DNA from: Nemertoderma westbladi
Taxonomy: Eukaryota > Animalia > Xenacoelomorpha
Assembly (NCBI GenBank): GCA_032718475.1
Contig: JAUCBJ010008429.1
Span: 1-45,400, forward strand
Length of the DNA: 45,400 nucleotides
Reading direction: 5' to 3'
Of the stretch, positions 8,590 to 32,458 are shown in pieces (within the stretch, counting starts at the first letter, position 1; every line of letters begins with the position of its first letter). The position numbers were made by a program, and so were the translations under genes. Below the pieces are notes generated by a model. The model was not told the DNA's origin. It saw only the letters and a program-made list of their open reading frames with translations, and did not search any database.

Positions 8590-11500
8590 GTTTCACTCCG
8601 GCATTCACCAAGTGAGGGTGTAGTAGGCCAGAATGGCCTCATATCTGACTCCACTGCGACACCCACCCAGGGTGTGGTATTTGCCCGAGAGCTGACTCGG
8701 CAAAAAAGCACCCCCCAACCCCCACTATGGATTACATTAGTAATGCGGAGGTCCGGCCACTAGAGGCCAGTGGAATTACTGGACACAATCGGCCTCACAG
8801 GCGTCAGTTATCTCCTGAACTGTTGCCAACAATTCTTTGAGTCCCTTTCCTGATGACCTTTCTGGCCCAAACCCTGGGTCACCAGGGAGGCCAGATTGTG
8901 AGGGGGGGAAGGATTCTGGAGTTAGAGGCTACTCTCATGTTCCACCCCGACCAACAAAGCCATTGGTGAATCTGAGGCAAGTCACCCTAACACTCGGGTC
9001 CCCAATGCGACAATGTGAGCTGATTGTCTTGGCAGATAAGCTTTCTCTTAGCGCAGTGGGTGTTCAAGAGCACCGAATGCAGACTGGACAGACTGATGAG
9101 GTTCTGATTAAGGACAGGGGGGCGGTTGGCGACTCGCCCTCGCGTCAGCAGATGATAGTGGCAATGGTAGAATTGGTCTATTGATGAATCCAACTGCAGA
9201 TGCAGCATTGGACAAAATAGACCAAATCTCTAACCGCATCATCCGTTGCCACTTCTCATGTTGTGGAAGACTCGCTAAGAAGTTTCCTAAGGTGGTTCTG
9301 ATTGTGTGCTACTCTCCAACTAGTGTTGCCCCTGTAGAGGAGGTGGAAAATTTCTACCACAATCTACAAGCAGCCACTGATGGAGTGGATCAGCATGCAT
9401 TCTTAACATTCCTGGGAGACTTTAATGCAAGTCTGCATCAATCACCTACATCGCCCTGGGTCTATAGCAATAGTGTTAACCGAAATTCCGTCCATCTTCA
9501 GGATTTTATCCCTGGAAATGGATTGTTTTCGGTTGGAACCCAGTTCAAGAAGCGAACTGGAAAGCTATGGACTCATAGTGGACCCAGTGGTCACAAGTCC
9601 CAGATAGACCATATTCTGTTTCGTAGGAAATACAGGAGCTATATATACAAGACTGTAATGCATTTACACTTCGACCCTTCTCCAGTGATCACCGCCTTAT
9701 TGTGGCCAAGGTAAGACTTAGTCTACGTGCTAGCAGAACAACGAAATCTCCCTTGCCGCGGCATGACTGGTCCTCTCTGTTGCAACAGCCAAGTGTGAGA
9801 TCCAGCTTCACACTACAGCTGAGCAACAGGTATGAATGAGGTTCTTGCCTCTGAGGCGGCAGATCACTGTGAGGGCTATACTGCCTTCACAGAAGCAGTT
9901 AAGTTAGCAGTTGCAGAAACAGTTCCGGTATACCCTCGAAACAGGAAAAGGGCCCCCTGGACTGACAACAATATTCAGAAGTGCCGAAATGACCTCTATA
10001 AGGCGCAGAAAGAGTCCCGACTCAAACAGACTACAGCGGCCAAGAATACAGTTAGGGCTGCATCTAGGTCCCTGAACAGGCAGTACTCTGTTAACAGGTT
10101 GATGCCATCAATGATTCTGACGACTGCAGGCAATCATCCCGGGCATGGAAATCGATCAACTTGCTTATTGGGCGGAAAAGCCAACCAACCATCAAGGTTA
10201 AGGCTGAATCACCAGCCGATCGCCTTAATGGTTGGAAGGCCCACTTTGAAAAGCTCCTTAATAATGACAGGGTATTCCCTGATAACTTTATAGAAGTAAA
10301 AGTGTCTGAGTCTGTACTCCCAGATATTCCCATTGGCGATATCTCCTTTGCAGAAGTGAAGGCTACTGCAAAGAGCATTAAGACCAATCGTGCCAGTGGA
10401 GTAGATGGTGTTCCCCCTGAGGTCTTTAAAATACCTGAGTGTTTAAAGCTATCTATCCCATCATAGTAGACACATGTACCGAACAACAAGAGTCCCACAA
10501 GAAATGAAAACAAATAAGTTGGTGCCAGTTCTTTTCGGGGAATCTCATTGATCTCGATTGCTGCAAAGCTATACAATAGAATTCTATTAAATCGCATCAA
10601 GGATCCCATTGAGAAACTGCTCCGTGGAAATAAGAATGGGTTCCGTAAAGGTCGTGGGACCATGGAGCCCATTTTGGCACTTAGAAGGATAATTGAAGAG
10701 TTATCAAAAAAAGAAAGACAGGCATCTGGCTGTTATCTTTGTTGATTTCTTCAAGGCCTTTGATTCAGTCTCTCGCTCACGTATGTTCAGCATACTTTCA
10801 TTATGTTGGATTCCTGATGAAATTATTGCAGCAATCAGATCAATATACGATGGTTCGACATTTGTGTCTACAGTTGACGGTGACACATAACCATTTTGAA
10901 GTGTTATGGGGCGTCCTCCAGGGAGACACACACCATTCTTGTTCATATTTGTGGTTCACTAAGTTCTACGCATGTCCTTAGATCATCATAATGATGATGG
11001 GGTGATGATAACTCCTCCTACTGGCTCCAGAAGTCGAGGAAATCCTGCCAAGTACCTAACTGATCTAGACTTTGCTGATGACTTAGGAGTGCTCTCAGAA
11101 TCACTAGAGGGAGCCCAACGGCTGCTCAGCTCATTAGAACATGCTGCTTCTAGTGTTGGTCTTTTTATTAACTCCAGAAAGGTTACCTGGGATCATGGAT
11201 CCGGAAGTCAGGTGAGGACCTTCGAATACGCAAGGGAAAGTCATGGGCAGCCTTGAATGGGCTTTCCAGGATGTGGAAGTCACCGAGAATTAATCGGAAA
11301 CTTAAGGTGCGATTATTAAGAGCAGCAGTAGTTCCAGTACTCCTCTATGAGAGTGCATGCTGGGCTCTAACTGCTGAGGACACCAAATCTCTGGATGGCA
11401 CATTCACAAGAATGCTACGCCGGGTTCATTATGTCAAGTACAATGCACACATCTCCAACCAGACACTATTTAACATTGGAGGTGTCTCATTGGTTCCCCC

Positions 11501-11692
11501 AAGCTTGTCACTAGAACAAAATCGCCTCCGCTTAGCAGGACATTGCTTTCGCCGTGAGGACCAGCCAGTGCATAATCTTGTAATTTGGCATTCTCATGGA
11601 GTGAATAAGCATGGTGGACAGCCCATGACTTTCTTCAGGCGCAACTTAAAGGACACGGGCCTTGAAGATGCGGATGATCTAGATGTCATGGT
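8590..11692 (+). mobile_element. Degenerate RTE-clade LINE (AP endonuclease + RT), 3' end missing
   Basis: APE motifs VGVQEHR, YSPTS, LGDFNA, SQIDHIL; RT motifs FVDFFKAFDSV, GVLQGD, LDFADD; C-terminal RLRLAGHC. Many frameshifts. 5' boundary approximate. Confidence 0.9.
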
Positions 11693-11900
11693 ACCAAGTG
11701 AGGATGCATCCTTCCATAAACTAAGTGAGGGTGTGTCCTTCCATAAACCAAGTGAGGGTGTGTCCTTCCATACACCGAGTGAGGGTGTGTCCTTCCATAC
11801 ACCGAGTGAGGGTGTGTCCTTCCATACACCAAGTGAGGGTGTGTCAAGTGAGGGTGTATCCTTCCATACACCAAGTGAGGTTGGTGTCTTTCCATACACC
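11693..11900. repeat. 27-bp minisatellite (CCAAGTGAGGGTGTGTCCTTCCATACA), about 7 units
   Basis: Directly visible. Confidence 0.95.
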
Positions 11901-12322
11901 GAATGTGGTCTTCAGGTGCCAGGAGAGGTCTGATTTCCAGATGGTATCCAATTTTTATAGAGTTACGTACGTTTGTCTCAGCCTTCCGAACTTCTATGAT
12001 TTTTTTGCTGCTCTCTATCTATGACCAAAGTACTGGAAATCGTCAAGTTAGCTTATTTTATATATTTTTTGTAAATTCATCTGTATCTCCCAAGAAACCT
12101 GGCGTTTCTTGGGAAAAACCGATATTTCGTGACTGTTCCTAAAATTTAATTATGAATTTCATTTAGTTTATATCGGTTATGGGAAACTGTTGTATAAGAA
12201 TAATTATTATACAACAGTTTCCCATAATTACCATAATCTTAATTATTAAGAAACAGGTTCCACATTCTTCACGTAATATTTCCGTAGAATTTTAAGGACG
12301 CGAAATATTATTGGTTGTTTAG

Positions 12323-14311: not shown

Positions 14312-14477
14312 ATGAGCGCCTACGAGCAATATTTAATGTCGGCGTATAGAACTGGGATCCTCGCGTTGGAGACATTGGCTCGACGGAATCAGGACGAGCG
14401 ACCGCAGCTTAAGTTTGCTAAGAACCCGCCCTACGCCGAAAACGTTAAGTGGTTGATGGAGATTGCTAATAAATTGG
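14312..14477 (+). CDS. ZSWIM8: ZSWIM8 exon (MSAYEQYLMSAYRTGILALETLARR...PPYAENVKWLMEIANKLG)
   Basis: Matches the conserved ZSWIM8 C-terminal AYRxGxLALE.L.RR...PPY...VKWL...A.KLG motif as I recall it. AG and GTTAGT borders, ends in phase 1. Confidence 0.92.
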
Positions 14478-14797
14478 GTTAGTTTGCTAAACCGAACCAC
14501 TTAATTTAGTTAGTTTGGCAAAGCCGAACCACACACTACATTAGGTTAGTTTGCCATCTAGGCCAATAAATTATGTTAGTTTGTCATCTGTACCAATAAA
14601 TATATTAGTTTTCCATCTGGGCCAATAAATTATGTTAGCTTGCAATTTGGGCCTATAAATTAGGTTAGTTTGCCATCTGGGCTATTAAATTAGGTTAGTT
14701 TGCCATCTGGGCTATTAAATTAGGTTAGTTTGCCATCTGGGCTATTAGATTAGATTAGTTTGCCATCTGGGCTATTAAATTAGATTAGTTTGCCATC
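14478..14797. repeat. 30-bp minisatellite, left part (degenerate toward the exon)
   Basis: Unit GTTAGTTTGCCATCTGGGCTATTAAATTAG. Confidence 0.95.
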
Positions 14798-16881
14798 GTA
14801 CTCACCGGTGGGGGGCGGAATCTCGGTTTCTGACGGGGTATCTTACTCCTGGAGTTGCTCTCTATTCCGTCCAACTTGGCGAGACTCTGTTTTGAAAACA
14901 TCGAGTCATTCATGGCTTCGGAGATATCGTCCAGGAATGCCGACATTTCAAGGAAGCTAGGATCTCGATCTGGATGTCTGCGCCGGAGATCTACGCATTT
15001 ATAAGCCCACTTACTTTGTAGCCATCCGGGGAACTTCCGGGCGATCTGTCGGAGGTTTAGAATGTTGTTCACCTGGTCCTCCTTATTCAAGGGTTTCAGA
15101 GTATAGTAGGCATCCTTCATAGAGTCGGAGAATTCCTGGATGTTCTGTGGGTCCCCTAGTGATCCCGCGTCCTGTATCAGTCTCTCTAGAGTTTTATTAA
15201 TTATAGTTCCGGTATTTCCGTATCTTTTATCTAGAGTTTTCCATGCGTCATAGTATGCCTCATGAGAACCTCCCTCAAAACACGCAATAATTCGGCGTGG
15301 TTTGTCACCCAGGTATTGCGATAAATATACCAATTTCTGTGCGTCGGCTATGTCCGTTGATCCAATCTGCGCAAAGAACTGTTTCTTGAATCTGAGGTAA
15401 TCGACGGGATCTCCTTCGAATGTGCGGATCTCCATCTTGGGCATGGCAAGGCGGTTTTCCAACGCCCGGATAATACCGACATCGTCTGAACTGGAGTGAC
15501 TCGGAGGGTTATAGTTATTGGCACTCACTCCCATACTCGATGGATCAATGATAGATGGAGTTTTAATGATGACGCGACTACGGGTTTGTGGTGTGGATGT
15601 AAATGGGTTGTTGGATCGGGGAGTGGCGTCCCGTTCCGAGTCCCTTTCAGGCTCGTACTTGGGTACACTCGTTGTCGTGGGGTTGGATGGGAAACACGGT
15701 TCCTCATTTTTCAGCGTAACCGGTGGGGGATGGAACACCGGTGCTTGTGCCGATAACGTAGACTGTATGATAGGCGGGATCTCGGGTTTCGGAAGTTTTG
15801 CCGCTGTTGGTGTAAATGACTTCTCTAACTCCGGTACCGGGATTGGTTCATATTCCTGATCTATTTCCCTTTCCCAGTCCTCGTATAGTTGGATATCTCG
15901 TTCTATAAGTGCGGCTTCATATTCCGCGAGTTTCGCAATATCCGCATTCTTTTTGTGGATGAGAATCGCTTGGGCCTCGGCGTGTTGTTTACGCATTTCT
16001 GCTTCCCATTTACGTTGTTCGATCTCTTGTTTGGCTTCTCGTTCACGTTGTTCAGCTTCCTGTTTGGCCTCTCGTTCACGTTGTTCAGCTTCCTGTTTGG
16101 CCTCTCGTTCATGTTGTTCAGCCTCCCTTTTGGCCTCTCGTTCACGTTGTTCAGCCTCCCTTTTGGCCTCTCGTTCACGTTGTTCAGCCTCCTGTCTATG
16201 TTGTTCGGCCCGCCGTTCGACCTCTTGTTCGGCCTCCCGCTTTTGCATTTCGGCGGCTAATATGTCTTGCTCGGTTTGCAGTTGAACGTACTCATCTTCC
16301 ATCCGAGCTTTGAGGGCTAATGCCTTCTGTTCTCGTAGCTGATCTCGGAGTGGCGGCCCCCCTTGAGAACTGCGCGCTGAGCCGGATATCTCGCTCCTAG
16401 CGCTGGAGCGCTGGTGTCTTGAGGACCCCGTTTTCTTTCGATGAATTGTGGTCCTGGTATTGGAGGTTCGCACCGATTCTGCGTCTGTTCTTTCAGCTCT
16501 CTTGTAGTACTGTTCTTCGTAGCCTCTCACGAGGCTAAGGGTCCTCCGGTGTTGTTTGCGGAATTCGTCTAGGCGTGCAACGTGTTCTTCCAATTTGGGA
16601 TAATTTACCTGGTCGGTGGCGGGGATGAGTTCTTGGTACGCCTGTATCATTCTCTCATATCTTTGTAAGATATTTCGGATACTCTGAAGCTGAGTTTGTA
16701 TCTCGTTGAGGGGGGTTTCGACTCCCTTGAGTTGTTTCTCTATACGTTGGTAGGCTCGAGTGACTCCGCCTTTGAGAGCACCTAGTCGACGAGCCATGTT
16801 CTTGATGTTCGGTACCTCGTCGGTTTCGGAGTCTGTGTGGTGATCCATCTCATCGGTATCGGATACGTTATTTGTCGTCAT
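14785..16881 (-). pseudogene. gag: Truncated gag of the second internal copy (open for 698 aa, ends in the minisatellite)
   Basis: Near-identical to 29606-27517. FEGDPVDYLRF and QKLVYLSQYL are Pao gag motifs; EAEQREREAK(R/Q) 33-bp repeats. Confidence 0.9.
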
Positions 16882-17069
16882 TGTAGCGCCTCGTCGATAG
16901 CTAGATAGGCGATGTCGTAAAACAGTTCCTCGTAGGTATTGTACTCAGCTTGGACCACCCGAACGGTAATCCTGAATCGTCCGACGTTCGTTCCTTGTAC
17001 TTCAACCTCGACGTGCCAGATTCCTGGCTCAACTTGGATTATATCAATGGGTGTGATCGATACTTCCAT
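16878..17069 (-). CDS. 63-aa ORF of unknown function overlapping gag by ATGA (copy 2)
   Basis: ATG start; its stop overlaps the gag start; protein-like amphipathic pattern. Confidence 0.5.
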   Translation of the reverse strand: MEVSITPIDIIQVEPGIWHVEVEVQGTNVGRFRITVRVVQAEYNTYEELFYDIAYLAIDEALQ

Positions 17070-17616
17070 TCCCTGTTAACAACTCTCCAAATATGTGATC
17101 TGCCGACTACGAGTTGGTTAGATCGAGTTTGTTGATTAATTAAACCACGACTTAGTCTTAACTCAAATACCAGAGTTACCTCGTAGTGGGTGCTGGCAAG
17201 CACGTAGAGAGTTTTGAAGAGTATTTGTAGGATTCTCAACTTCCACCAGTTGAAGTTGGCCGCGTTTTATTCTCAATTTTGACACCCTGTCAAAATTGAC
17301 CGAATTATTCTCAATCTTGTTGCCGTTATCCCGACACCAGGGGGGGAAAAACGCCGATGCTGGAGGCGGGGCTTTACAGACCACGGAGTCCCGGCCAGTC
17401 ACCGGATATTGATTGTGGAGAAGGAGGAATTTCTTAGATGCAGGATTGCGGTTGAGAAAAAGCTGCATTGGTTGGATATATTCTTTAATGTAGTTAACCC
17501 TGTTACAATCCTGATTGAGAATAATTTTGGGCTTCCCCAAATCAATATACACCAAATATTCACAATAATTATACACGACAATATAAATCCCTACAGTATA
17601 TTATTTAATTACCCAC

Positions 17617-18813
17617 TGTTCGCTCAGATTTTAGCCTAACTAATGTTCCCCAGATTTTCCCTCGGTCCTAGTCTTGATGCCGTAGTGTCGGTGTCGGTCG
17701 ACCCTGTCGCGTGTCCGTTCCACCCCTCCCGAAACCCGAAGGGATCAATCATCGAGAACCAGCACGGCTTGGCTAAGGGTCGGTCCAGTCGGTAGACTCT
17801 GTCGCGTATCCGTACCACCCCTCTCGAACCCCGAAGGGATCGGTCATCGAGAACCAGTACGGCTTGGCTAGGAGTCTGTCGTGTCGGTGGACCCGTTCGC
17901 GTGTCCGTCCCACCCCTCACGAACCCCGAAGGGGACAATCATCGAGAACCAGTACGGCTTGGCTAGGGGTCCGTCGGTTCATCGCAGAAACCCAACCACC
18001 TAGGCTTTCCGAGTCCCTTTCAGGCTCGTAGTCGCTTCGGCAGCCGAGAAACTGCTCCGAACAGTCGGTAGGCCGGTAGAGTCCAGTCCTTTGTCTTTCG
18101 ACCCCGTCGCGTGTCCGTCCCACCCCTCACGAACCCCGAAGGGAACGATCATCGAGAACCAGTACGGCTTGGCTAAGGGATCTGTCGTCGGTCCCGTCGC
18201 AAATCCCTGGTACAAGCAGCCGGCGTTCCGATGTCCTTTTCAGGCTCGTAATAACTGCTGTTGACCAGAGACCGCTAAGGGCAGTCCTCGTCAAACCCTT
18301 CCTCTGTTAGTCGGTAGACCCTTTCGCGTGTCCGTCCCACCCCTCACGAACCCCGAAGGGAACGATCATCGAGAACCAGTACAGCTTGGCTAGGGGTCTG
18401 TCGTGTCGTTTCCCGTCACAAGTCCCTGACACAAGCAGCTGGCGTTCCAATGTCCTTTTCAGGCTCGTAATAACTGCTGTTGGCCAGGGACCGCTAAGGG
18501 CAGTCCTTGTCCTTTAGGCCTGGCGCATTACCAAATCCACCTCTACAGGCAGCAGGAAGTTGGCCAGGGCCTAATAGTAATCAGGCTAACCTGAATACTG
18601 CTTGAATTTTCCATCCCCCCTTGGCCCTTATAAACATGAAATTAGTCCCGTACCCTGTAAGTCGCCCCAAAGTTCGCCCATAAATCGCCCCCAGTTTATA
18701 GAATGTGCCCAAAACCCATGGTCCCGCACCCAGTAGTAATATCGGAATAATCATTTTAAATTAATACAAAAAATATTCAACTCGCGTTATAAAAAGTTGA
18801 AATACCGCGAACA
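17617..18813 (-). repeat. 3' (shared) LTR, 1197 bp
   Basis: TGTTCGC...GCGAACA inverted termini, preceded on minus by the PPT. The 17617 end is inferred only from the terminal inverted repeat. Confidence 0.85.
17696..18403 (-). other. Five copies of a ~90-nt candidate structured RNA motif in the LTR (also 30420-31127)
   Basis: Covarying closing stem, C(UUCG)G hairpin and a possible pseudoknot. Confidence 0.6.
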
Positions 18814-18822
18814 GTCCCCCCA
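18814..18822 (-). other. Polypurine tract
   Basis: Minus strand TGGGGGGAC abuts TGTT of the LTR. Confidence 0.75.
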
Positions 18823-18986
18823 ATGACCTTCGTGAGGTCTATCGGTAGATTGAGTTTGCGTAGGTCATTCCCAATATAAAAAACCCAAATTTAATATTGC
18901 ATAGTTTTAATTAATTTGGCCTAGAGTTTATATATATATGTATAAAAATAAATGTTCGATAAATGTTCCTGGAATATCCCGATCCA

Positions 18987-21613
18987 CTATTTCTTTCTCT
19001 GATACGCCTTTCGCCTCTTCGCCCGTCGGCTCTCGTCGATCGCTATAGCTGGTAGAGGAGCGTCAACATCCATCGTGAGCAACGCTTCGGCTTGTCTCCT
19101 GGCGGCTCTTCCTTTCGATGGCATCGGGATCATATCGGTTCGTCGTTCCAACTCGGAGTTGCGAGCCTCGAGGAACCACTCTCCGTCACCGAACTCCTCT
19201 TTATACGAGTATAAGCGTCTAATGACTTCGAATGGGCCGAATAATCCAGCGCTCAGCAACAAATCCACGTAATGGAAAGGCAGCGTGGCAGACGTGTGGA
19301 GGCGTTCCGGGAAGGAGAAATACCCGCACGCCATCTCCTGCGCGATATTCCGAGCGTTTCTCCGAACCTTGGTCTTTATGTGGCTGTTTGCATATGTTTC
19401 AAACATGACCATATTTCCCATAGCGGTAATGTCTTTGGGAGGACATTTGATATAGCAGCGGGGGCTAGAGGAATGTCCACAGAAACCGCACGTGGTGCAG
19501 AGGTTATATAGGATCGGACAGACGGAAACGTCGTGACCCGATGTCGCGCAGTATGGGCAATCCAGTATGGGAGTATCCCGAGGAGCTGGAGGCACGAATC
19601 GGTAACCCGATTCCTTCTACCGCGTGGGCACTGCTCCGAACCACAGTCACCGCACACCTCCAATTGCATCTCTCGACCGGGGAATATCGGAATCGGGACG
19701 CCGACGTAATACTCGAGTCGTCGGTCGCTCTTCTGAATATTCGCGGTGGTCGGTAGCCCGCGGAAGGCTGGGCTTTTGCGTAGTAGGTCCTCGCTACTAT
19801 AACCTTCTTTGTGTCCCGTCGGTCTCAACTCGGACGACCGTTTCTGGCGGTGGATCCATTCGGTTTGCTCGGCGTACCAACGGGTTAGTGGCATAGGATC
19901 CTGAGGAACGGAGGGTGTAGTAGCCACCGCTGGTCGGCGAAGAGGTGCCGGGGTTTTCGACGGAGGGTTTCCGAGGAGATCGTCGGGAGTCGGCGCAGCG
20001 CTGGGGCCCTTCTCGACCAATATCGCTGAGCGGGTCCGTTGATTGCTGGTACTCGGAATCTCCGACGACCAGTCTTCGCCACCCGGGAAAGGATACGGGG
20101 ATAACCTTTGGCACGTATCGCCGAAGTCGTTTAACGCGAAGGTAGTAACCAACTCCCTCACAGGGCTACCGAAGCCGAGTGGTGAGGAAACGCCCGCTTC
20201 CGTCGTTGGTTCGGTGGAGGCAACCCGTTTGGCGGCCGGTTGGTAAGCGGCCTCCGGCTCGAGTTGTCGCTTCGGGGTGGAGAGTAGAACACCCTCATTT
20301 AGCCATATTTCTTCCCCTTCCGAAGAAATCAGAGGCTCCTCCGCACCGAGAAGTTCGGTAATCGTAGGGATGTCGTAAGGTCCGCTCTCGTCCCAGGAAT
20401 CGATAACAGCGAGTGTTTTAGTCTCTCCCGGTGTGATGTTCTCGACCGCTTTGAACGCGTGGTTTATAACCTCGTTCCAGTCGTAGTCGATGAAGGAAAG
20501 AGGAACCGCCGTAATAAGGTTATCGAGAGTTTTACAGATAAACTTAGCGACGGTGTAGCACTCCATAACGACGTAGACATAGTTCCGTCGATCGGGATTC
20601 TCCCACCTTTGGTGTATCGTCCACTTCCGATCAACGTCCTTCCATCGACCCTCTCGCTCGCTCTTTATTTCTAATCCCGGGTATCCACCATATATTTTAT
20701 TATAGTCCCGGAATTTCTGGGGTTTGAAGTCGATGCCGCCGTTTAGCACAGCGAGGTAGCCGATCCCGGATTTCGTCGGTCTCACCTCTTGGAATCCTCG
20801 CATGAACTCGGCGAATCGTAACCAGGCTAGTAGCGTTTGAGTGTCGACGCAATGGCTAAGGGCGTTGAGGTCGTCTCGTCGGTTTCTTCCTGAAGGAGCG
20901 TTCGCGTAGTCGTTCCGGACGTCCGCCTTTATATCCGACCCGATTTTAATGACGTCGAAGTCGAAGAGGATCTTTTGGATTTCCGGAGGTAGCAACCAGA
21001 TCGCTCCGGCTGCCTGCACTTCCTGTCTGGGTGTCGGAAATATTCGACACACCAATACCAAACCGTCCAGGGTTCCGAGGACGACGACCAAGGATCGACC
21101 GTATTCTTTCGCCCCATATTTTTCTTGGTAGTCGTCGCGATTTTGGATGGTCGATATACGTTCCTCTCGAAGCATCGCCGTACACTCCGACAGGTTTCCC
21201 CAGTGGGCGAGGTACGTACTCTTGTCGTCGACGAAACTTTGACATCTCGCCAACGTAATCGCTTTCGAGGTGGGCGTCGCGTTTCCCTCGTTGTCGTAGA
21301 TCAAACATCGGGATCTGTAGACGCTCTGCCGGAACGTTTCCCAAAACGACGAATCGTCCCCTCCGGTTGCCTTTGCGTTCCGAGTTCTTTTCAGTCTCGT
21401 ACTAGCATCGGCTAACCGGAGGGCTCGTAGATTCTTGGAATCCGGTCCCTCTCGCCCGGTGAATTTAACGACTCGCACGTTCTTATTTAGCAGGGTGCTC
21501 CAATTTGTATCAAAGTCAGGGGATCCAGGTTGCGAATATTCCAGTAGATCTATCGTGTTACGTAATTCGCCGATAATTTGGCGATTTGGGTCCATATTTA
21601 CGATTATGTCCAT
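18987..21613 (-). CDS. Accessory ORF: DEDDy-like 3'-5' exonuclease, P/S/T-rich linker, CCHC knuckles; one frameshift near 19615; about 875 aa joined
   Basis: ExoI IYDNEG, LPPEIQKILFDFDVIKIGSDIKAD (ExoII), VDTQTL, GIGYLA, RW...YVVME (ExoIII); CPYCATSGHDVSVC and CTTCGFCGHSSSPRC. Confidence 0.75.
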
Positions 21614-22198
21614 TACAAATTAGATCAGTTAATTATAAGTCCAGAAAGTCTGAAACTATAGTGATTGCAGAATAATTCAGTTCAGTTTATTAAATAACAT
21701 TGCTATATAGGCATCTATCATCTTATTGCTAATACATTCAGCATTTACAGTTACTATAACTATACATTAATATCCAACCAGTTTTTATGACTTTTTATGT
21801 CCTTTCTTTTTTCCAATTCTTTTCTTCAGACTTTTTTTTATACCTTTTTTTTGTCTTTTTTTCATTTCTCTTTATTATTTCATCTCATTTCATTTATTTC
21901 AACATATTTCAACACATTTATTTCCACCATTTATTTCACATTTCATTTATTTCCACATATATTTCATCATTTAGTTCCACCATTTATTCTCAATTTTGTT
22001 TATTTCCACATCATCATTGGGGTTATAGCCCCCCGGCTATCATCATTTGTTATAAGCGCAGCACCAGGGTGCGCATCATTACATTTTCATCATCATACGC
22101 GTCACCATTCAGGTTTATAGTAGAGTTGTCTGATTCTTTTCATCGTTTCCAACTACATTCAATCATCTTCTTTGGTTAATCTTTGTCGTGGAAGGGGT

Positions 22199-22610
22199 GT
22201 TACGTGGCAATCTGGGATCTACAGCTGGGCTAGTTACACCGCCTACGCCCCAAACTGCGCACGTAACGGACAATGAAGACGCTGGGAGTGAAGTCACGTG
22301 GAGTGCACCAGGGACCCACCAGAATAACACTCCCAGCAACATAAAGCTCAGTCGACGAAGTCATGTGGGATGGGGTTACGCAACATTCTGGGATCTACAG
22401 CTGGACTAGTTACACCGCCTACGCCCCAAAATCCACGCAACGGTCCCACCAGAATAACGCGACTGAGAAACATAAAACCCTCTATCGTCGAAGTCATGTG
22501 GATGCACCATGGACCCACCAGAATAACGGGATAGAGGGGGTGTTGCGCGGCAATCCGGGATCTACAGCTGGACTAGTTACACCGCCTACGCCCCGAACTG
22601 CGCACGCAAC
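22199..22610 (-). other. Array of two interleaved structured RNA motifs (3 copies each) between pol and the accessory ORF
   Basis: Conserved internal loops closed by stems with compensatory changes. Confidence 0.7.
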
Positions 22611-22888
22611 GGACAACATAACATACTGCGATGAATACAATGAATTCCACTTCAAATCTTTTCCATTTCCAATAATCCAATATCGTTGGTCCCGATGACC
22701 AAAATCAGGGTAAACAATGCATAAACGACCCTGCGTCAGTCGAAACATCTGCAGGGTGACGCTGGACTCCACATAACACACGAGGAAACACAAATACCAT
22801 TGCGTGGTTACAGTTGGTTTAAGGGGGGTCCATTTTCATTGTCGATAAATCACAGTTTAAAAGAGTTTGTCAACAGGATGAGAAGGGT

Positions 22889-25800
22889 TTACACGCATTT
22901 GTAATTGTCACCAATGTCTGCAGCAGGATCTTGAGTAGGGAACTTATCACCTCTCGTAGAATCACCGCTGTCATTGCCTTCAAGAAGGCACAGCCTCTGG
23001 ATAGGGAGTTGGTAGTGGCCCTTTGCCGTTCGTATCGTCACAGTCCTCACAAGTCCGTCTTTACTCGGATGTATTGTCACAACTCGCGCCATAGGCCAGT
23101 GGATGCGGTCTTTAAGATCTTCTTTTACTAGTACCATGTCGCCAACTTCGACATTCCTGTAGGTGTTGTTCCACTTCCTCCTGGTCCGGAGGGTTATGAG
23201 GTACTCCTGGGCCCAGATTCTCCACCAATGCGCTGCCAACGCTTGGGCCTTCTTCCAGTTTGTATGTCTCGCAATATCGTTGGGATCCGGAAACATTGTC
23301 TCCGGGAGAACGTGAGTTTTAGGTCTCCCCAGTAGGTGATTAGGAGTAAGGGGCTCCAGGTCTGTGGGGTCGTCGCGGATAGGGACAATGGGTCGGTTGT
23401 TCAGGGTAGCCGTGATCTCGCAGAATGTTGTGCGGAGGGTGTCATGGGTTACCCGGGTGTCTCCTAGAGCGACGCGCATGGATCGTTTCACTAGGTCGAT
23501 CAGTTTCTCCCATACCCTGCTCGTATGGGGTGCTAAGGGGGTCTGGAAGTGCCACTGTATCTGGTGTTCCTTCCAGACTTGGGATGCGGTGTTATCGGTA
23601 AACCATCCCTCGATCGCCTCTCTAAGTTCTCTTTCTCCTCCCACAAAGTTTGTGCCGTTATCGGAATACATGTGACGACATGTCCCATTGCTTGCCACGA
23701 ACCGACGCAGAGCGTTGATGAATGCGTGTTGTGTAAGGTTCACCACAATGTCTAGGTAGATTGCCCTAGACCTAAGGCATGTAAATATGGCCCCCAGCAT
23801 TTGATGTTGGATCGTCGTTCGATGACTGTAAACGGACCGAAACAGTCCACTCCGGTGACGTAGAATGGTGGGGAATCGGGCTGTAGACGGGTGGCTGGTA
23901 AGTCGGCTATCTTTTGTGTGAGTGGTGGCGCTAGATATCTTCTGCAGACAAAGCAACGTTTCAACACTTTCCGGATCAGTGGCTGGATGTGTGTGATCCA
24001 ATATCTTTGTCTTATATTAGCTATAATCCAGTTTTGTCCTGCGTGATGGTTCTCCTCGTGACATTGTTGAATTAATAGCTTGGCTAGTGTTGAAGTTCCG
24101 GGCAGAAGCGCCGGGTATTTAACCTCATATTCGACCGGGGCGTTTGCCATCTGGGTATTCAGTCGGATCAGTCCGTCCTCTCCCATCATTGGTCTCAGTT
24201 GGTAGACTGGGCTATCCGGTTTCAAGGTCTTGCCCGCACTGAGTTGTTCCCACTCATCGGGGAAACTTTCTCTCTGGACATATCCAACGATACACTTCTC
24301 CGCGATAATGAGTTCTTGTATACTCCGTTGAACTATCGGCTTGTTGTTTTTCCACCGTAGGAAGTTGCGAAGGGTTATAATGTGGTGGATGAGCCGTCTC
24401 ATTGATGAGGTTCGCTCGATCAACAGATGTAAAGACGCCGCTGGTTGCATGATCGTCGCAACGTTATAGTGCCTGCCCGAGTCCTTTGCAGGCTCAGTCA
24501 GACAGCTATAAATTTCCACTGCGTTGCTTCTATGGACTTTACGGATCTCTTTATTGTCCTCGGAGTATTTTCCGCTATCGAGTTCGGGGTTGAATCGGGT
24601 ACTCCATGTTAATTGTGGCTGCTGTAGGAATTCCGTGCCTGTAAGCCAGAGTTTACTTTTACTGAGTTGTTTTGGGGTGGCGCCTCGGCTTGATAAGTCC
24701 ACTGGATTTTCTTTCCCGTTCACATGGTGCCACTGTTCTCGGCCAGTACACTGTTTAATCTCCGTGGCTCGGTTCGCAACAAACGTAGTGTGACGCTGTG
24801 ATGGAGAGTGGAGATAATAGGGAACTATACTCGAATCGACCCAGAAGTGTTGAGACTCGATGGGGATTCGTAGGTTCCGCATGACCATGCGATTCTGTCT
24901 TACTGCCCAAACTGCAGCCTGTAGCTCGAGTCTTGGAATCGTTGCTACGGATTCCCCGGATACTGTCTTGGCTTTAGAAAATAAGAAGCTCGTATCGCCG
25001 TTTCCATCGTTGCTGAGTCTTCATAAGAAGGTGACTACGCCAATTCCGGTATTCGAAGCATCCGAGAAGGTATGGAGCTGGAAGATATCGGTGGGTAGTT
25101 TATCGAGGAAGAACGGTCGAGGTATCCGCATAAGATGTAGGTGTTCGAGCTGCTCCGTCCATTTTCTCCATTTGACGCTGAGGTGTGGGGGGAGTTCTTC
25201 GTCCCATCCCAGTCCTTCTATCCACATTTCCTTAATCAGGTTCATTCCGGCCATTCCGGCATTACTGGAGATATGAAATTTAGTGGGTCGAAGATGGCGC
25301 TTTTTATCGACAAACATCCCCTTTTTGTCATAGGCTTGGGTAGGGGTTTATATTTGAAAATGAATTCGTCTGATTCTATGTCCCATTCAATCCCGAGTAC
25401 ACGGTGTTCCACATCCTCCGAATACATTTTGTTGTTTTCCAGTCGGATGTCCTCCGGAAACTTTTCCATAAGTGTTTTGTCGTGGGATCTGAACTTCACG
25501 AGCGGAAAACCTCCTTTCTTTAGACATTCTACCATCCCCATTGCTAGCCGATATGCCTCGTCCACATTATCTGCGCCGGCGCATCCATCGTCCACGTAAA
25601 AGCATCGTCGGATGGTTTCTATTACGGTTGGAGGGAACTCGTTTTCGCACATAGTTGCCGTCCTCTTCAGCATGTCACTGCATGCTACCGGCGAGTCCTT
25701 AGCGCTGAAGATCCTGACGACCATACGCATTATGTCTACGTCCTTTATTGTGAGTTGACTAATCTCCTGTTGAGTTAGTGTTTTATCCGTCCATAGGATA

Positions 25801-28800
25801 CGTAGACAGTATGAGTCTCTTGGTAGCGTACGAACTTGATGAAACATGGCCTTGATGTCGCAGGTGAATGCTACCCGGTTTTCCCTGAACCTGATCAATA
25901 CGCCGATGAGTGTACTATATATGTTGGGTCCCGTGTAAAGCTGACTGTTTAGGGATTCGCCCTGGTACATAGCGGCGGCATCATTTACCACTCGGATTTT
26001 CCCACCCTTCCGGGCTTCTACCACATAGTGGGTTGGGAGATAATATGTTCTTTTACCACCTTGCAGTTCATTCCGTGGTACCATTTCTGCTAATCCATCG
26101 TCGAGATATCCTTGGATTACGGTATTATATTTCTCCTTTATCTCGGGTTAGTCATTCAGCCGGCGTAGAATCCCCTTAAGTCGCCTAAGTGCCATGCTGG
26201 CGTTGTTTGCCATTGGTTTGTTTGGGTCCTTCCATAACATAGGTGAACACCAGTGTCCGTCTTTGAACGTGGCTTGGTCGAGAACGTCCATACAATATTG
26301 ATCCTCTTCGGACGGGTTTTCGTCCTTTTCAGCGAACTCCTGGGTCTCTAGATTAAAATATTTCGTCATCTCTTGTTGGGTTTTCTCGGTCTCCAGAAAC
26401 AAATCCTCGTCAAGGTCCGTAGCTGAGCAATAACCCACGGAGGTTGCATTCTCTTTAATCTGACATTTGGGAAGGTAGGTATAGGTGTCAGTAGTTTCTT
26501 CCTTAATGCCGCAGAGTGTCCATCCCATTATTGTTCGTTCAGCATAAAATCCGTCATCCTGTTTTATAGATCGGGCGATATCTCCGGTGGGGATGTGTAG
26601 TTCCGGTGTATCAAGTCCGATCAGTAGGGTGATGCGGTTTACGTCCAACTGCGGACACCTCAGATCTACATCGTCTCGGTCCAATTGTATGAGGGGGGCG
26701 TACTCGGCCGATTGTCGGAACCGCACTCGGAGGTCTGTGTGTACCAAGGCGTTCTTGATGGTTAACTTAACCGTTTCGTAGCCCTTCATCACTCCTTCCA
26801 TCTGGAGTTGCACCTCCCCGGACTCTACCTCTCTGTTATCGGTGATGGTTTGTATGGGCCGTTTACAAGGTTCATATTCTAGGCCGAGTTGCTCGAGGAA
26901 ATCCCGGTCGATGATGGTTCCGTCAGACCCGTTATCAAGGAACGCGAGCGTCGTCAGGGATTTGCCGACTCCTTGAATCCTTACTGGGATTACCTTTGCG
27001 AAGACCATGTAGCGGCGATTTATAAGATTAATCGTGGCTGAAATATTTGTTACTTGTGGTGTATCGGTAGAGATTTTAAACGGGTTGGTTTCTCTCCGTT
27101 GGGTTGTCCGGGTTCCTTTGAAAACGTGGTTCGTTTCTCCTCTTCGCTTGGCTTCGATCCGAAAGGGGAGGGTAGTGAAATCGAAGTTCGCGGGGATGTG
27201 GAGGAGCGTGTGATGACGTTGGTCGTTACAGACGGCACAGCACGATCTTTGGTCGCAATCCCGAACATAGTGACCTGTTCCAAGACACCGGAAGTATCCT
27301 CGGTGTTTCATTATCGCCTCGAAGCGTGGGACGAGTTCGGCGAACTGAAACTTCCTGCAGAATTCCACTTTATGTTTCTCTCCACAGAAGAGACAGAGGA
27401 GGGAGTTTGTGATGCCTTCCCTCTCGGGTGCCCAATTCGCAAGGTAACACGCCCATTCCTCGGTGGATGTCGGTTCCTCGTAGTCTTCGTCGTTGGAATC
27501 CTCGGCCATGGTGATGGCCATCGTACTCACCGGTGGGGGGCGGAATCTCGGTTTCTGAGGGGGTATCTTACTCCTGGAGTTGCTCTCTATTCCGTCCAAC
27601 TTGGCGAGACTCTGTTTTGAAAACATCGAGTCATTCATGGCTTCGGAGATATCGTCCAGGAATGCCGACATTTCAAGGAAGCTAGGATCTCGATCTGGAT
27701 GTCTGCGCCGGAGATCTACGCATTTATAAGCCCACTTACTTTGTAGCCATCCGGGGAACTTCCGGGCGATCTGTCGGAGGTTTAGAATGTTGTTCACCTG
27801 GTCCTCCTTATTCAAGGGTTTCAGAGTATAGTAGGCATCCTTCATAGAGTCGGAGAATTCCTGGATGTTCTGTGGGTCCCCTAGTGATCCCGCGTCCTGT
27901 ATCAGTCTCTCTAGAGTTTTATTAATTATAGTTCCGGTATTTCCGTATCTTTTATCTAGAGTTTTCCATGCGTCATAGTATGCCTCATGAGAACCTCCCT
28001 CAAAACACGCAATAATTCGGCGTGGTTTGTCACCCAGGTATTACGATAAATATACCAATTTCTGTGCGTCGGCTATGTCCGTTGATCCAATCTGCGCAAA
28101 GAACTGTTTCTTGAATCTGAGGTAATCGACGGGATCTCCTTCGAATGTGCGGATCTCCATCTTGGGCATGGCAAGGCGGTTTTCCAACGCCCGGATAATA
28201 CCGACATCGTCTGAACTGGAGTGACTCGGAGGGTTATAGTTATTGGCACTCACTCCCATACTCGATGGATCAATGATAGATGGAGTTTTAATGATGACGC
28301 GACTACGGGTTTGTGGTGTGGATGTAAATGGGTTGTTGGATCGGGGAGTGGCGTCCCGTTCCGAGTCCCTTTCAGGCTCGTACTTGGGTACACTCGTTGT
28401 CGTGGGGTTGGATGGGAAACACGGTTCCTCATTTTTCAGCGTAACCGGTGGGGGATGGAACACCGGTGCTTGTGCCGATAACGTAGACTGTATGATAGGC
28501 GGGATCTCGGGTTTCGGAAGTTTTGCCGCTGTTGGTGTAAATGACTTCTCTAACTCCGGTACCGGGATTGGTTCATATTCCTGATCTATTTCCCTTTCCC
28601 AGTCCTCGTATAGTTGGATATCTCGTTCTATAAGTGCGGCTTCATATTCCGCGAGTTTCGCAATATCCGCATTCTTTTTGTGGATGAGAATCGCTTGGGC
28701 CTCGGCGTGTTGTTTACGCATTTCTGCTTCCCATTTACGTTGTTCGATCTCTTGTTTGGCTTCTCGTTCACGTTGTTCAGCTTCCTGTTTGGCCTCTCGT

Positions 28801-29606
28801 TCACGTTGTTCAGCTTCCTGTTTGGCCTCTCGTTCACGTTGTTCAGCCTCCCTTTTGGCCTCTCGTTCACGTTGTTCAGCCTCCCTTTTGGCCTCTCGTT
28901 CACGTTGTTCAGCCTCCTGTCTATGTTGTTCGGCCCGCCGTTCGACCTCTTGTTCGGCCTCCCGCTTTTGCATTTCGGCGGCTAATATGTCTTGCTCGGT
29001 TTGCAGTTGAACGTACTCATCTTCCATCCGAGTTTTGAGGGCTAATGCCTTCTGTTCTCGTAGCTGATCTCGGAGTGGCGGCCCCCCTTGAGAACTGCGC
29101 GCTGAGCCGGATATCTCCCTCCTAGCGCTGGAGCGCTGGTGTCTTGAGGACCCCGTTTTCTTTCGATGAATTGTGGTCCTGGTATTGGAGGTTCGCACCG
29201 ATTCTGCGTCTGTTCTTTCAGCTCTCTTGTAGTACTGTTCTTCGTAGCCTCTCACGAGGCTAAGGGTCCTCCGGTGTTGTTTGCGGAATTCGTCTAGGCG
29301 TGCAACGTGTTCTTCCAATTTGGGATAATTTACCTGGTCGGTGGCGGGGATGAGTTCTTGGTACGCCTGTATCATTCTCTCATATCTTTGTAAGATATTT
29401 CGGATACTCTGAAGCTGAGTTTGTATCTCGTTGAGGGGGGTTTCGACTCCCTTGAGTTGTTTCTCTATACGTTGGTAGGCTCGAGTGACTCCGCCTTTGA
29501 GAGCACCTAGTCGACGAGCCATGTTCTTGATGTTCGGTACCTCGTCGGTTTCGGAGTCTGTGTGGTGATCCATCTCATCGGTATCGGATACGTTATTTGT
29601 CGTCAT
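22889..29606 (-). pseudogene. gag-pol: gag-pol polyprotein with in-frame stops (28041, 26148, 25021) and frameshifts (about 25270 and 23790)
   Basis: Three Cys/His knuckles, protease FLDNGS, RT YVDD, RNase H FSDAS/PRLEL, integrase HHCC + DDE, Pao C-terminal WPMARV..HP..DG.VR. Confidence 0.95.
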
Positions 29607-29794
29607 TGTAGCGCCTCGTCGATAGCTAGATAGGCGATGTCGTAAAACAGTTCCTCGTAGGTATTGTACTCAGCTTGGACCACCCGAATGGTAATCCTGA
29701 ATCGTCCGACGTTCGTTCCTTGTACTTCAACCTCGACGTGCCAGATTCCTGGCTCAACTTGGATTATATCAATGGGTGTGATCGATACTTCCAT
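29603..29794 (-). CDS. 63-aa ORF overlapping gag by ATGA (copy 1)
   Basis: Same as 16878-17069 with one V/I difference. Confidence 0.5.
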   Translation of the reverse strand: MEVSITPIDIIQVEPGIWHVEVEVQGTNVGRFRITIRVVQAEYNTYEELFYDIAYLAIDEALQ

Positions 29795-30340
29795 TCCCTG
29801 TTAACAACTCTCCAAATATGTGATCTGCCGACTACGAGTTGGTTAGATCGAGTTTGTTGATTAATTAAACCACGACTTAGTCTTAGCTCAAATACCAGAG
29901 TTACCTCGTAGTGGGTGCTGGCAAGCACGTAGAGAGTTTTGAAGAGTATTGTAGGATTCTCAACTTCCACCAGTTGAAGTTGGCCGCGTTTTATTCTCAA
30001 TTTTGACACCCTGTCAAAATTGACCGAATTATTCTCAATCTTGTTGCCGTTATCCCGACACCAGGGGGGGAAAAACGCCGATGCTGGAGGCGGGGCTTTA
30101 CAGACCACGGAGTCCCGGCCAGTCACCGGATATTGATTGTGGAGAAGGAGGAATTTCTTAGATGCAGGATTGCGGTTGAGAAAAAGCTGCATTGGTTGGA
30201 TATATTCTTTAATGTAGTTAACCCTGTTACAATCCTGATTGAGAATAATTTTGGGCTTCCCCAAATCAATATACACCAAATATTCACAATAATTATACAC
30301 GACAATATAAATCCCTACAGTATATTATTTAATTACCCAC

Positions 30341-31537
30341 TGTTCGCTCAGATTTTAGCCTAACTAATGTTCCCCAGATTTTCCCTCGGTCCTAGTCTTG
30401 ATGCCGTAGTGTCGGTGTCGGTCGACCCTGTCGCGTGTCCGTTCCACCCCTCCCGAAACCCGAAGGGATCGATCATCGAGAACCAGCACGGCTTGGCTAA
30501 GGGTCGGTCCAGTCGGTAGACTCTGTCGCGTATCCGTACCACCCCTCTCGAACCCCGAAGGGATCGGTCATCGAGAACCAGTACGGCTTGGCTAGGAGTC
30601 TGTCGTGTCGGTGGACCCGTTTGCGTGTCCGTCCCACCCCTCACGAACCCCGAAGGGGACGATCATCGAGAACCAGTACGGCTTGGCTAGGGGTCCGTCG
30701 GTTCATCGCAGAAACCCAACCACCTAGGCTTTCCGAGTCCCTTTCAGGCTCGTAGTCGCTTCGGCATCCGAGAAACTGCTCCGAACAGTCGGTAGGCCGG
30801 TAGAGTCCAGTCCTTTGTCTTTCGACCCCGTCGCGTGTCCGTCCCACCCCTCACGAACCCCGAAGGGAACGATCATCGAGAACCAGTACGGCTTGGCTAA
30901 GGGGTCTGTCGTCGGTCCCGTCGCAAATCCCTGGTACAAGCAGCCGGCGTTCCGATGTCCTTTTCAGGCTCGTAATAACTGCTGTTGACCAGAGACCGCT
31001 AAGGGCAGTCCTCGTCAAACCCTTCCTCTGTTAGTCGGTAGACCCTTTCGCGTGTCCGTCCCACCCCTCACGAACCCCGAAGGGAACGATCATCGAGAAC
31101 CAGTACAGCTTGGCTAGGGGTCTGTCGTGTCGTTTCCCGTCGCAAGTCCCTGACACAAGCAGCTGGCGTTCCAATGTCCTTTTCAGGCTCGTAATAACTG
31201 CTGTTGGCCAGGGACCGCTAAGGGCAGTCCTTGTCCTTTAGGCCTGGCGCATTACCAAATCCACCTCTACAGGCAGCAGGAAGTTGGCCAGGGCCTAATA
31301 GTAATCAGGCTAACCTGAATACTGCTTGAATTTTCCATCCCCCCTTGGCCCTTATAAACATGAAATTAGTCCCGTACCCTGTAAGTCGCCCCAAAGTTCG
31401 CCCATAAATCGCCCCCAGTTTATAGAATGTGCCCAAAACCCATGGTCCCGCACCCAGTAGTAATATCGGAATAATCATTTTAAATTAATACAAAAAATAT
31501 TCAACTCGCGTTATAAAAAGTTGAAATACCGCGAACA
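30341..31537 (-). repeat. 5' LTR, 1197 bp
   Basis: Near-identical to 17617-18813, with a sharp junction to the minisatellite at 31537/31538. Confidence 0.85.
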
Positions 31538-32373: not shown

Positions 32374-32458
32374 AATTCAACCAATGAAAAAAAGATAAAT
32401 TAGCGGAATTTTCTCTGGACCAATAAATCATATATGCCTCTGTTTTTATCCTCTTTAG

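What the first reader, a model, noticed from the sequence alone, without database searches (positions are those of the whole stretch)
18987..21613. Bel/Pao retrotransposon carrying a DEDDy 3'-5' exonuclease / zinc-knuckle gene in the env position
Seen: between integrase and the PPT, in sense orientation, an ORF with D107-x-E109, the LP..I..IL.D..V.KIG..I..D231 block, VDTQ, GIGYLA and W...Y347xxxE351, then a low-complexity linker and Cys/His knuckles. No signal peptide or TM helix is evident, so it is not env. Known: this motif series typifies the WRN-exo/EXD2/Mut-7(Nibbler)/RNase D group; Nibbler and Mut-7 act in small-RNA trimming or silencing; LTR-element RTs lack proofreading; nidoviral ExoN and arenaviral NP use DEDD nucleases for proofreading or dsRNA removal. 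Inference: a retroelement-encoded anti-silencing or cDNA/primer-processing nuclease. I know of no description in Bel/Pao but cannot check the literature.
Basis: partly seen in the sequence, partly recalled or inferred. Interest (0 to 1): 0.88.

Follow-up and report, generated by a model that had tools for sequence, protein, structure and literature searches.

The report
Bel/Pao retrotransposon with exonuclease third gene
A broken copy of a multi-copy Bel/Pao jumping gene in an animal genome carries, where retroviruses carry their envelope gene, an extra gene kept by selection that likely encodes a nucleic-acid-trimming enzyme with zinc knuckles, a kind of cargo described in print for other retrotransposon groups but not found by our searches for this one.

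Summary
Largely confirmed. A 14.3-kb Bel/Pao element (minus strand, LTRs from 31537 and 18813) holds a third gene between integrase and the polypurine tract. It lies in two frames (21613-19376, 19616-18987); both match one 648-aa relative (P0001), so it is one gene, frameshifted in this decayed copy. The window protein itself hits no Pfam, NCBIfam or PDB exonuclease, and the bare DEDDy motif is common by chance. The assignment comes through three distant relatives: their blocks place ExoI at D107/E109, ExoII at D231, ExoIII (weakly) at Y347/E351; the family profile matches known DEDDy domains (hhalign 84-94%), and a partly confident model of P0001 ranks human EXD2 first in two fold searches. 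Other copies in three studies differ mostly at silent sites (29 of 38 shown), so the gene is selected cargo. Activity and substrate are untested; I favour RNA 3'-end trimming against small-RNA silencing (0.4) over end-polishing in reverse transcription (0.3). DEDDy ORF3s are published for rotifer Ty3/gypsy-like and Athena elements, and this scan noted Rrp6-like ones in Gypsy elements of other genomes; none was found for Bel/Pao. New variant of a known kind.

The parts
29975..31537 (-). 5' LTR (about 1.56 kb, starts TGT; 3' end placed at the CA before a TGG, tentative); holds 95-bp and 219-bp internal repeats
29955..29972 (-). candidate primer-binding site (begins TGG); cognate tRNA not identified
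   Evidence: one of two CA..TGG sites between 30450 and gag
26148..29606 (-). gag (DUF1759, Cys/His boxes) and aspartic protease; in-frame stops at 28041-28043 and 26148-26150
22889..26147 (-). pol: RT (YVDD), RNase H (Peptidase_A17), Integrase_H2C2, rve, DUF5641; broken by a stop at 25021-25023 and frameshifts near 25242-25347 and 23752-24016
22191..22616 (-). three copies of an ~83-nt predicted hairpin in the pol-ORF3 spacer; 3 of 25 pairs show a two-sided change
   Evidence: (z -3.3 and -4.6 for the two copies folded with shuffles)
20489..21376 (-). ORF3 DEDDy-type exonuclease domain (aa 80-375): ExoI D107/E109, ~50-aa insertion, ExoII D231, ExoIII Y347/E351
19376..21613 (-). ORF3 first frame (745 aa): exonuclease domain, Pro/Ser/Thr-rich linker, first CxxC; the tail after the frameshift is out of frame
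18987..19616 (-). ORF3 second frame (209 aa stop to stop): CX2CX4HX4C knuckle, a further C/H knuckle and a C-terminal block shared with P0001
   Evidence: zf-CCHC_4 E 1.7, not significant; E 1e-9 to P0001
18814..18821 (-). polypurine tract
17251..18813 (-). 3' LTR (6 differences in 1562 bp from the 5' LTR)
14792..17250 (-). second, truncated internal copy (leader and gag) sharing the 3' LTR, ending in 30-bp satellite

Best explanation
This is a decayed copy of a multi-copy Bel/Pao LTR retrotransposon whose third gene, kept by purifying selection, likely encodes an EXD2/WRN-type DEDDy 3'-5' exonuclease with zinc knuckles that would trim RNA 3' ends for the element's benefit, most likely to blunt small-RNA silencing. 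Shown: element anatomy, ORF3 inside the LTRs in the env position, two frames that match one relative, excess of silent differences among copies. Predicted: RNase H-like DEDDy fold with D107, E109, D231, E351 binding two metal ions and Y347 as the 'y' residue. Inferred: ORF3 is made from its own (spliced or internally started) message, since it is a separate gene 1.27 kb behind pol with a TTTCAG just upstream; the CCHC knuckles on a flexible linker hold single-stranded RNA and feed its 3' end to the nuclease; the target is host-made silencing guides or their element-derived precursors. The reason for preferring counter-defence is comparative, not direct: DEDD nucleases recur as optional cargo in elements with unrelated replication chemistry (LTR, Penelope-like, DNA transposons), and most Bel/Pao elements replicate without one.
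For: Bel/Pao domains DUF1759, Asp protease, Peptidase_A17, Integrase_H2C2, DUF5641 in order. Three relatives among 1.84 billion representatives (E 1.6e-6 to 3.1e-4); P0001 matches both frames (7e-16, 1e-9). ExoI block of the three relatives scores 20.7 at D107 against -2.3 for the next of 181 places; 0 of 2000 shuffles reach it. Family profile: top of 2 PDB matches is human EXD2 (E 0.67), ExoII D on D and ExoIII Y/E on Y/D; hhalign to 7 DEDDy domains 93.7%, to the 5 not picked with a family motif 83.5% (score 44 against at most 19.6 in 60 column shuffles). Model of the P0001 domain: Foldseek top hit EXD2 (E 1.4e-3), most listed rows DEDD-family; VIA top hit EXD2, Z 7.8, rmsd 3.0, 88 aligned. 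Atlas: P0001's best three clusters are PF01612, the first with zf-CCHC in 61% of members (score 0.86, a lead only). Reads: 1368, 699 and 10 contigs of three studies lie on the domain; 29 of the 38 coding differences shown are silent against 23-32% expected (p at most 2.3e-8), none alters a catalytic residue.
Against: No direct Pfam, NCBIfam or PDB hit to an exonuclease for the window's own protein; alone it scores only 62.7% against the DEDDy alignment, and family against RNase D + Pol I only 24%. The fold rests on the relative P0001, with mean pLDDT 48 and only the N-terminal half above 60; Foldseek E is above 0.001 and Z is under 8, with ribosomal eL38-type chains at Z 6.2. ExoIII placement is weak (433 of 2000 shuffles reach it), the last acid is E, and MAFFT and hhalign put the ExoI of the relatives on D160/161 instead. 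Nothing here tests substrate, activity or expression. Only 40 of 144 difference rows were shown, chosen by support, and there is no like-for-like pol control. Mature piRNAs are 2'-O-methylated and resist such trimming (recalled). The genomic context of P0001-P0003 is unknown.
Confidence: 0.4

Rival explanations
1. The same DEDDy nuclease works inside the particle on reverse-transcription intermediates: it would polish the 3' ends of strong-stop DNA or finished cDNA (removing untemplated bases before strand transfer or integration) or trim the tRNA primer, carried in by nucleocapsid-like knuckles.
For: A canonical CX2CX4HX4C knuckle, the motif of Gag nucleocapsids; nearest fold EXD2 discriminates DNA and RNA by metal (PMC6648332 abstract) and acts on RNA-DNA hybrids (PMC13425236, listing only); 3'-end processing roles are proposed for TE-borne DEDD nucleases (PMC5408684, PMC3706591, PMC9587614 passages).
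Against: It is a separate gene, not part of Pol; Bel/Pao elements are described with gag, pol and at most env (PMC8742986), so these steps run without it elsewhere.
Confidence: 0.3
2. The domain has the fold but little or no catalysis and serves as an RNA-binding adaptor, as EXD1, Maelstrom or Egalitarian do, perhaps reading the conserved hairpins upstream of ORF3 for transport or packaging.
For: D-to-E at ExoIII in the window protein, P0001 and P0003, and at ExoII in P0003; ~50-aa insertion after ExoI; EXD1 and Egalitarian are among the fold hits; three hairpins with two-sided changes lie in the spacer.
Against: All four acidic positions and the tyrosine are kept in 4 of 4 proteins that are only 27-32% identical; dead derivatives usually lose them (recalled).
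Confidence: 0.15
3. A proofreading helper for RT that lets the element carry a long genome, as nidoviral ExoN does.
For: The element is 14.3 kb with 1.56-kb LTRs, above the 4.2-10 kb and 0.2-1.2 kb given for Belpaoviridae; Pol A proofreading domains are in the same superfamily.
Against: Not fused to RT; much of the extra length is ORF3 itself, spacer and repeats; rotifer elements of ordinary size carry DEDDy ORF3 too; 14 kb is below the sizes at which RNA viruses need ExoN (recalled).
Confidence: 0.08
4. The DEDDy likeness is chance or ORF3 is a neutral passenger captured by this copy.
For: No significant direct family hit; bare motif in 16% of shuffles.
Against: Silent-site excess; presence in many divergent copies in three studies with almost no contigs running into unlike sequence in X1 and X3 (share 0-0.01); four methods converge on PF01612/EXD2.
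Confidence: 0.07

Closest known systems
DEDDy-exonuclease ORF3 of bdelloid rotifer Juno and Vesta LTR retrotransposons and Athena/Terminon elements (Rodriguez, Kenefick, Arkhipova 2017, PMC5408684; abstract, Results 3.1-3.4, 3.6 and Discussion passages read; supplements not opened)
   Same: Env position after pol, no TM or coiled coil, DEDDy family, catalytic residues kept with one D-to-E change, function untested.
   Different: Those carriers are rotifer LTR lineages with dUTPase and Penelope-like elements, not Bel/Pao (the word Pao as a whole word has 0 occurrences there). Their motif is DEED, here D-E-D-E. Here the nuclease is joined by a long linker to three C/H knuckles and is too divergent for Pfam. 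That paper found ORF3 variation mostly neutral (tested on env and GDSL ORFs); here the silent-site excess is strong. Sequence kinship to the rotifer ORF3s was not tested (sequences not at hand).
Human EXD2 / WRN-exonuclease / Nibbler / Mut-7 group (PF01612, DEDDy)
   Same: Top hit by profile, Foldseek and VIA; same ExoII K-x-G-x5-D and ExoIII W...YxxxD/E spacing.
   Different: About 18-20% identity; cellular genes; EXD2 has an N-terminal TM anchor (PMC6648332 abstract); rank among DEDDy subfamilies is not resolved at this divergence, so the donor is unknown.
Env-bearing Belpaoviridae (Tas, Cer7; PMC8742986 whole text, PMC554778 passages)
   Same: Bel/Pao gag-pol, third gene in the same position.
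   Different: Their third gene is an envelope glycoprotein; this one has no signal peptide or TM anchor and has a nuclease fold.
DEDD nucleases of DNA transposons: Dada (DEDDy, PMC3706591) and KolobokD (DEDDh, PMC9587614); passages read
   Same: Mobile-element-borne DEDD 3'-5' exonuclease, proposed to process 3' ends.
   Different: DNA transposons; in Dada the domain sits inside the transposase.

Membership tests
Bel/Pao (Belpaoviridae) | gag-PR-RT-RH-IN order with Pao-type domains | tested here: met
   DUF1759 5.7e-15, Asp_protease_2 2.6e-5, YVDD, Peptidase_A17 3.5e-14, Integrase_H2C2 3.3e-9, DUF5641 2.4e-29; RT piece had no Pfam hit
Bel/Pao (Belpaoviridae) | two direct LTRs (TG..CA) and a PPT before the 3' LTR | tested here: met
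   TGT starts at 31537 and 18813, PPT 18821-18815; 3' end of the LTR tentative
Bel/Pao (Belpaoviridae) | PBS complementary to a host tRNA (Arg or Gly in the ICTV profile) | tested here: inconclusive
   candidate TGG site at 29972; no host tRNA set at hand
Bel/Pao (Belpaoviridae) | RT phylogeny within the family; target-site duplication | not tested
   no tree built; the far end is truncated, so no TSD can be read
DEDDy 3'-5' exonucleases (PF01612/EXD2/WRN) | ExoI D-x-E at the end of beta1 | tested here: met
   D107/E109, block score 20.7 vs -2.3, 0 of 2000 shuffles; global aligners chose another register
DEDDy 3'-5' exonucleases (PF01612/EXD2/WRN) | ExoII acid six residues after the G of K-x-G | tested here: met
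   D231; aligned to the EXD2 aspartate; best-conserved block
DEDDy 3'-5' exonucleases (PF01612/EXD2/WRN) | ExoIII YxxxD | tested here: inconclusive
   Y347xxxE351: E for D; best of 107 places but 433 of 2000 shuffles reach the score; profile aligns it to EXD2 ExoIII
DEDDy 3'-5' exonucleases (PF01612/EXD2/WRN) | RNase H-like fold | tested here: inconclusive
   met for the N-terminal half of the relative P0001 (Foldseek E 1.4e-3, VIA Z 7.8, rmsd 3.0, 88 aligned); the window's single-sequence model was unusable (pLDDT 32)
DEDDy 3'-5' exonucleases (PF01612/EXD2/WRN) | Pfam PF01612 gathering score | tested here: not met
   no hit for the window protein; P0001 domain 14.2 bits against 23.6. This bears on the Pfam model, not on the superfamily
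DEDDy 3'-5' exonucleases (PF01612/EXD2/WRN) | two-metal 3'-5' exonuclease activity | not testable with these tools
   needs an assay
env (envelope glycoprotein) | signal peptide, ectodomain, C-terminal TM anchor | tested here: not met
   hydropathy scan: only aa 174-192 is high and maps to a beta-hairpin; second frame at most 1.24
Rotifer retroelement DEDDy ORF3 pool (Juno/Vesta/Athena) | clusters with those ORF3s rather than with cellular DEDDy proteins | not tested
   their sequences were not fetched

The most novel reading that the evidence does not exclude
A lineage of Bel/Pao retrotransposons encodes its own active suppressor of small-RNA silencing: a deeply diverged, knuckle-guided DEDDy nuclease family (window ORF3, P0001-P0003) that turns the host's piRNA-trimming chemistry against it, the retrotransposon counterpart of viral DEDD counter-defence nucleases, and part of a nuclease cargo picked up independently by at least three retroelement classes.
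Probability: 0.3. Interest if true: 0.8.

Novelty: new variant of a known kind. Interest (0 to 1): 0.52.

Why it matters
Animal retrotransposons are not known to carry many enzymes aimed at host silencing, and the role of TE-borne DEDD nucleases has been open since 2017. This case extends the cargo from rotifer elements to a second LTR superfamily, adds an RNA-binding knuckle module, and gives what the rotifer study lacked: evidence that selection keeps the gene in a multi-copy family. The unbroken nuclease domain can be assayed directly, so the question of what such nucleases cut (small RNA, cDNA ends, hybrids) becomes testable.

Tried and rejected
Direct family scans of the window ORF3 found no exonuclease: Pfam, NCBIfam, PDB sequences (best were a linker protein and DJ-1 at E 0.2-3, rejected). 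Word-indexed homologue searches gave 0 of 2776 and 0 of 1480 candidates and, with the 4-sequence profile, only 2 of its own members among 7997; longer and shorter forms were not searched. Full-length alignment A1 against PDB: 0. Related loci: none in viral contigs or metagenome contigs (0 of 133 and 0 of 145 stretches); with the domain alignment 1 of 34 viral stretches, a phage Pol A exonuclease. No phage tblastn match. Single-sequence AlphaFold model unusable. No Rfam match in 14400-32400. No RNA holder listed; X5 (RNA only by guess, other organism label, depth 3-6) is not used as evidence of expression. Depth was not used as copy number or to rank genes. No whole genome is held, so copies could not be assembled or counted. 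Exact look-up of four window proteins: none in the collection. My long motif regex was circular and is discarded. Whether the ORF3 frameshift is private to this copy could not be read: 12 of 111 indel rows were shown. LTR identity is not taken as the insertion age, because the repeat extends 2.46 kb into leader and gag and may be a later tandem duplication. Look-ups of earlier findings by sequence or relatives gave nothing.

Full report
Observation. The window holds a Bel/Pao LTR retrotransposon on the minus strand. An LTR begins TGT at 31537, at the edge of a 30-bp satellite; gag, protease, RT, RNase H and integrase follow (Pfam DUF1759, Asp_protease_2, Peptidase_A17, Integrase_H2C2, rve, DUF5641), then a 1.27-kb spacer, the gene in question, a polypurine tract and a second LTR starting TGT at 18813. 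Behind that LTR the leader and gag repeat and break off at 14792 in the same satellite: a 4023-bp repeat with 14 differences. The unit from LTR to LTR is about 14.3 kb, above the 4.2-10 kb of the ICTV profile (PMC8742986, whole text read). This copy is decayed: three in-frame stops and two frameshifts in gag-pol.

The third gene lies in two frames, 21613-19376 (745 aa) and 19616-18987 (209 aa). The motif alone proves nothing: 3271 of 20000 shuffles hold it, and Pfam, NCBIfam and PDB sequence searches give no exonuclease.

Relatives. An unindexed search of 1.84 billion representatives found three proteins (P0001-P0003, E 1.6e-6 to 3.1e-4, 31-32% identity), each a single unnamed ENA sequence. 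P0001 (648 aa) has the whole architecture and matches the first frame at 7e-16 and the second at 1e-9. The two frames are therefore one gene, nuclease-like domain, low-complexity linker, C/H knuckles and a conserved C-terminal block, interrupted here by a frameshift between about 19640 and 19565. Their genomic context could not be fetched.

Is it DEDDy? Four lines converge, none strong alone. (a) The 4-sequence profile returns 2 PDB sequences at E up to 10; the first is human EXD2 (E 0.67), matched in order at ExoII and ExoIII. P0001 has a weak PF01612 hit (E 0.04). (b) hhalign against 7 Pol A and RNase D exonuclease domains gives 93.7%; without the two picked through a family motif 83.5%, score 44 against at most 19.6 in 60 column shuffles; against RNase D and Pol I alone only 24%; the window protein alone 62.7%. 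(c) An AlphaFold model of the P0001 domain (4 sequences, mean pLDDT 48, N-half 60-75) ranks EXD2 first in Foldseek (E 1.4e-3, most listed rows being EXD2, RNase D, RICE, EXD1, Egalitarian, Rrp6, Klenow, WRN, Nibbler) and in VIA (Z 7.8, rmsd 3.0, 88 aligned; ribosomal chains follow at 6.2); viral hits are mostly Pol A and 3'-5' exonucleases. (d) The Atlas gives PF01612 clusters for P0001, all ten best family hits in one clan, top score 0.86, a lead only. Global aligners put the relatives' ExoI on D160/161, which would make the window protein degenerate; an ungapped scan with the relatives' 20-residue block settles on D107/E109 (20.7 against -2.3; 0 of 2000 shuffles), implying a ~50-aa insertion after ExoI. 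ExoIII at Y347/E351 is the best place but not significant alone (433 of 2000). I put the DEDDy assignment at about 0.9 and catalytic activity at about 0.7. It is not env: no signal peptide is evident and the one hydrophobic window maps to a beta-hairpin.

Is it real cargo? Six of 7 listed runs hold part of the stretch, in 4 studies; one may be the window's own source. I laid 4 of them. In X1 and X3 contigs cover all 30 bins of the element, ORF3 as well as gag-pol, and the share running on into unlike sequence is 0; they are short, so no single contig links ORF3 to pol. On 20400-21700, 1368, 699, 10 and 3 contigs were laid, many only 80-95% alike. Of 144 difference rows the 40 best supported were shown; 2 lie upstream of the ORF and were dropped; of the other 38, 29 are silent against 23-32% expected (binomial p at most 2.3e-8, rough dN/dS 0.09-0.15), and the only one in a catalytic codon is silent. 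In the whole-element table (40 of 1361 rows; 35 coding) gag-pol rows were 2 silent of 16, linker 4 of 11, second frame 0 of 2 and nuclease domain 5 of 6; those rows are mostly changes private to this decayed copy, so they are no like-for-like control, and they give no sign of selection for the knuckle part. Its conservation rests on P0001.

Mechanism. Shown: anatomy and selection. Predicted: fold and catalytic set (D-E-D-E plus Y). Inferred: a separate message (spacer with three conserved hairpins; a TTTCAG about 40 bases before the ORF), RNA binding by the knuckles, 3'-end trimming. I commit to trimming of silencing-related RNA (0.4), because DEDD nucleases recur as optional cargo in elements with unrelated replication chemistry while Bel/Pao replication does not generally need one; end-polishing during reverse transcription is close behind (0.3); a dead RNA adaptor (0.15) and proofreading (0.08) are less likely. 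No result here separates the first two.

Comparison with the known. PMC5408684 (abstract, Results 3.1-3.4 and 3.6, Discussion passages; supplements not opened and could hold the ORF3 sequences) describes DEDDy ORF3s in rotifer Juno and Vesta LTR elements and Athena elements and discusses RNA 3'-end processing and silencing; reviews repeat it (passages of PMC6431247, PMC6338049, PMC5718144). Dada and KolobokD DNA transposons carry DEDD nucleases (passages). For Bel/Pao I found no such report in searches (listings of at most 20; the slash form of the name cannot be searched as a phrase); the word exonuclease does not occur in PMC3118150, PMC2774666 or PMC554778 nor in the ICTV profile, and once, for a LINE endonuclease, in PMC11662393. 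Malik et al. 2000, Ganko et al. 2001 and the Terminon paper are not held, and Repbase, GyDB and Dfam could not be searched. I have an unverified recollection that a C. elegans Cer element of the BEL group was drawn with an exonuclease-like domain in Malik et al. 2000; if so, the Bel/Pao novelty shrinks further. This scan noted Rrp6-like ORF3s in Gypsy elements of other genomes, none like this sequence.

Verdict. Real, selected, non-env cargo of a Bel/Pao family, very likely a diverged EXD2/WRN-type DEDDy nuclease with zinc knuckles; function untested; a new variant of a kind known from rotifers. Interest 0.52.

Noticed in passing
window 22191-22616 (-): Three copies of an ~83-nt hairpin in the pol-ORF3 spacer, z -3.3 and -4.6, 3 of 25 pairs with two-sided changes, invariant core; no Rfam match. 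Possible packaging, localisation or expression signal.
   Followed up: partly
window 14792-18813 and 27517-31537: 4023-bp repeat (LTR, leader, gag) with 14 differences: a tandem element sharing one LTR, truncated, with 30-bp satellite on both sides (14465-14797, 31538-32373).
   Followed up: partly
window 17693-18511 and 30417-31235: The LTRs hold 95-bp and 219-bp internal repeats; one unit folds at z -2.2, another does not (z 0.8); a contig in X5 shows an LTR lacking much of this part.
   Followed up: partly
window 5524-7407 (+): Intron-free 627-aa FMR1/FXR-like ORF (Tudor/Agenet, KH0, KH, RGG tail), GC 62%; a retrocopy or an intronless gene.
   Followed up: no
window 19376-21613 vs gag-pol: ORF3 has higher GC3 (0.60 vs 0.50-0.55) and CpG o/e (1.25-1.54 vs 0.82-1.08) than gag and pol, in line with a separate origin.
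   Followed up: no
window 18776-21739 in run X4: Summed contig depth over ORF3 is about 3-5 times that over pol and gag in X4 but not in X1 or X3; may be a search artefact or ORF3-bearing derivatives lacking gag-pol.
   Followed up: no
window 9184-11933 and 42393-43346: Decayed LINE-like element (EEP endonuclease E 8.5e-5, RT-like pieces) and a second fragment 78-83% alike.
   Followed up: no
window 34553-37876: 41-bp satellite, 81 copies, 99% alike.
   Followed up: no
window 3643-4638: About 1-kb element made of nested inverted repeats, MITE- or foldback-like.
   Followed up: no
window 32434-32832 (+): Exon-sized ORF matching ZSWIM4-8 C-terminal domain (E 4.4e-13), a likely host gene piece next to the satellite.
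   Followed up: no
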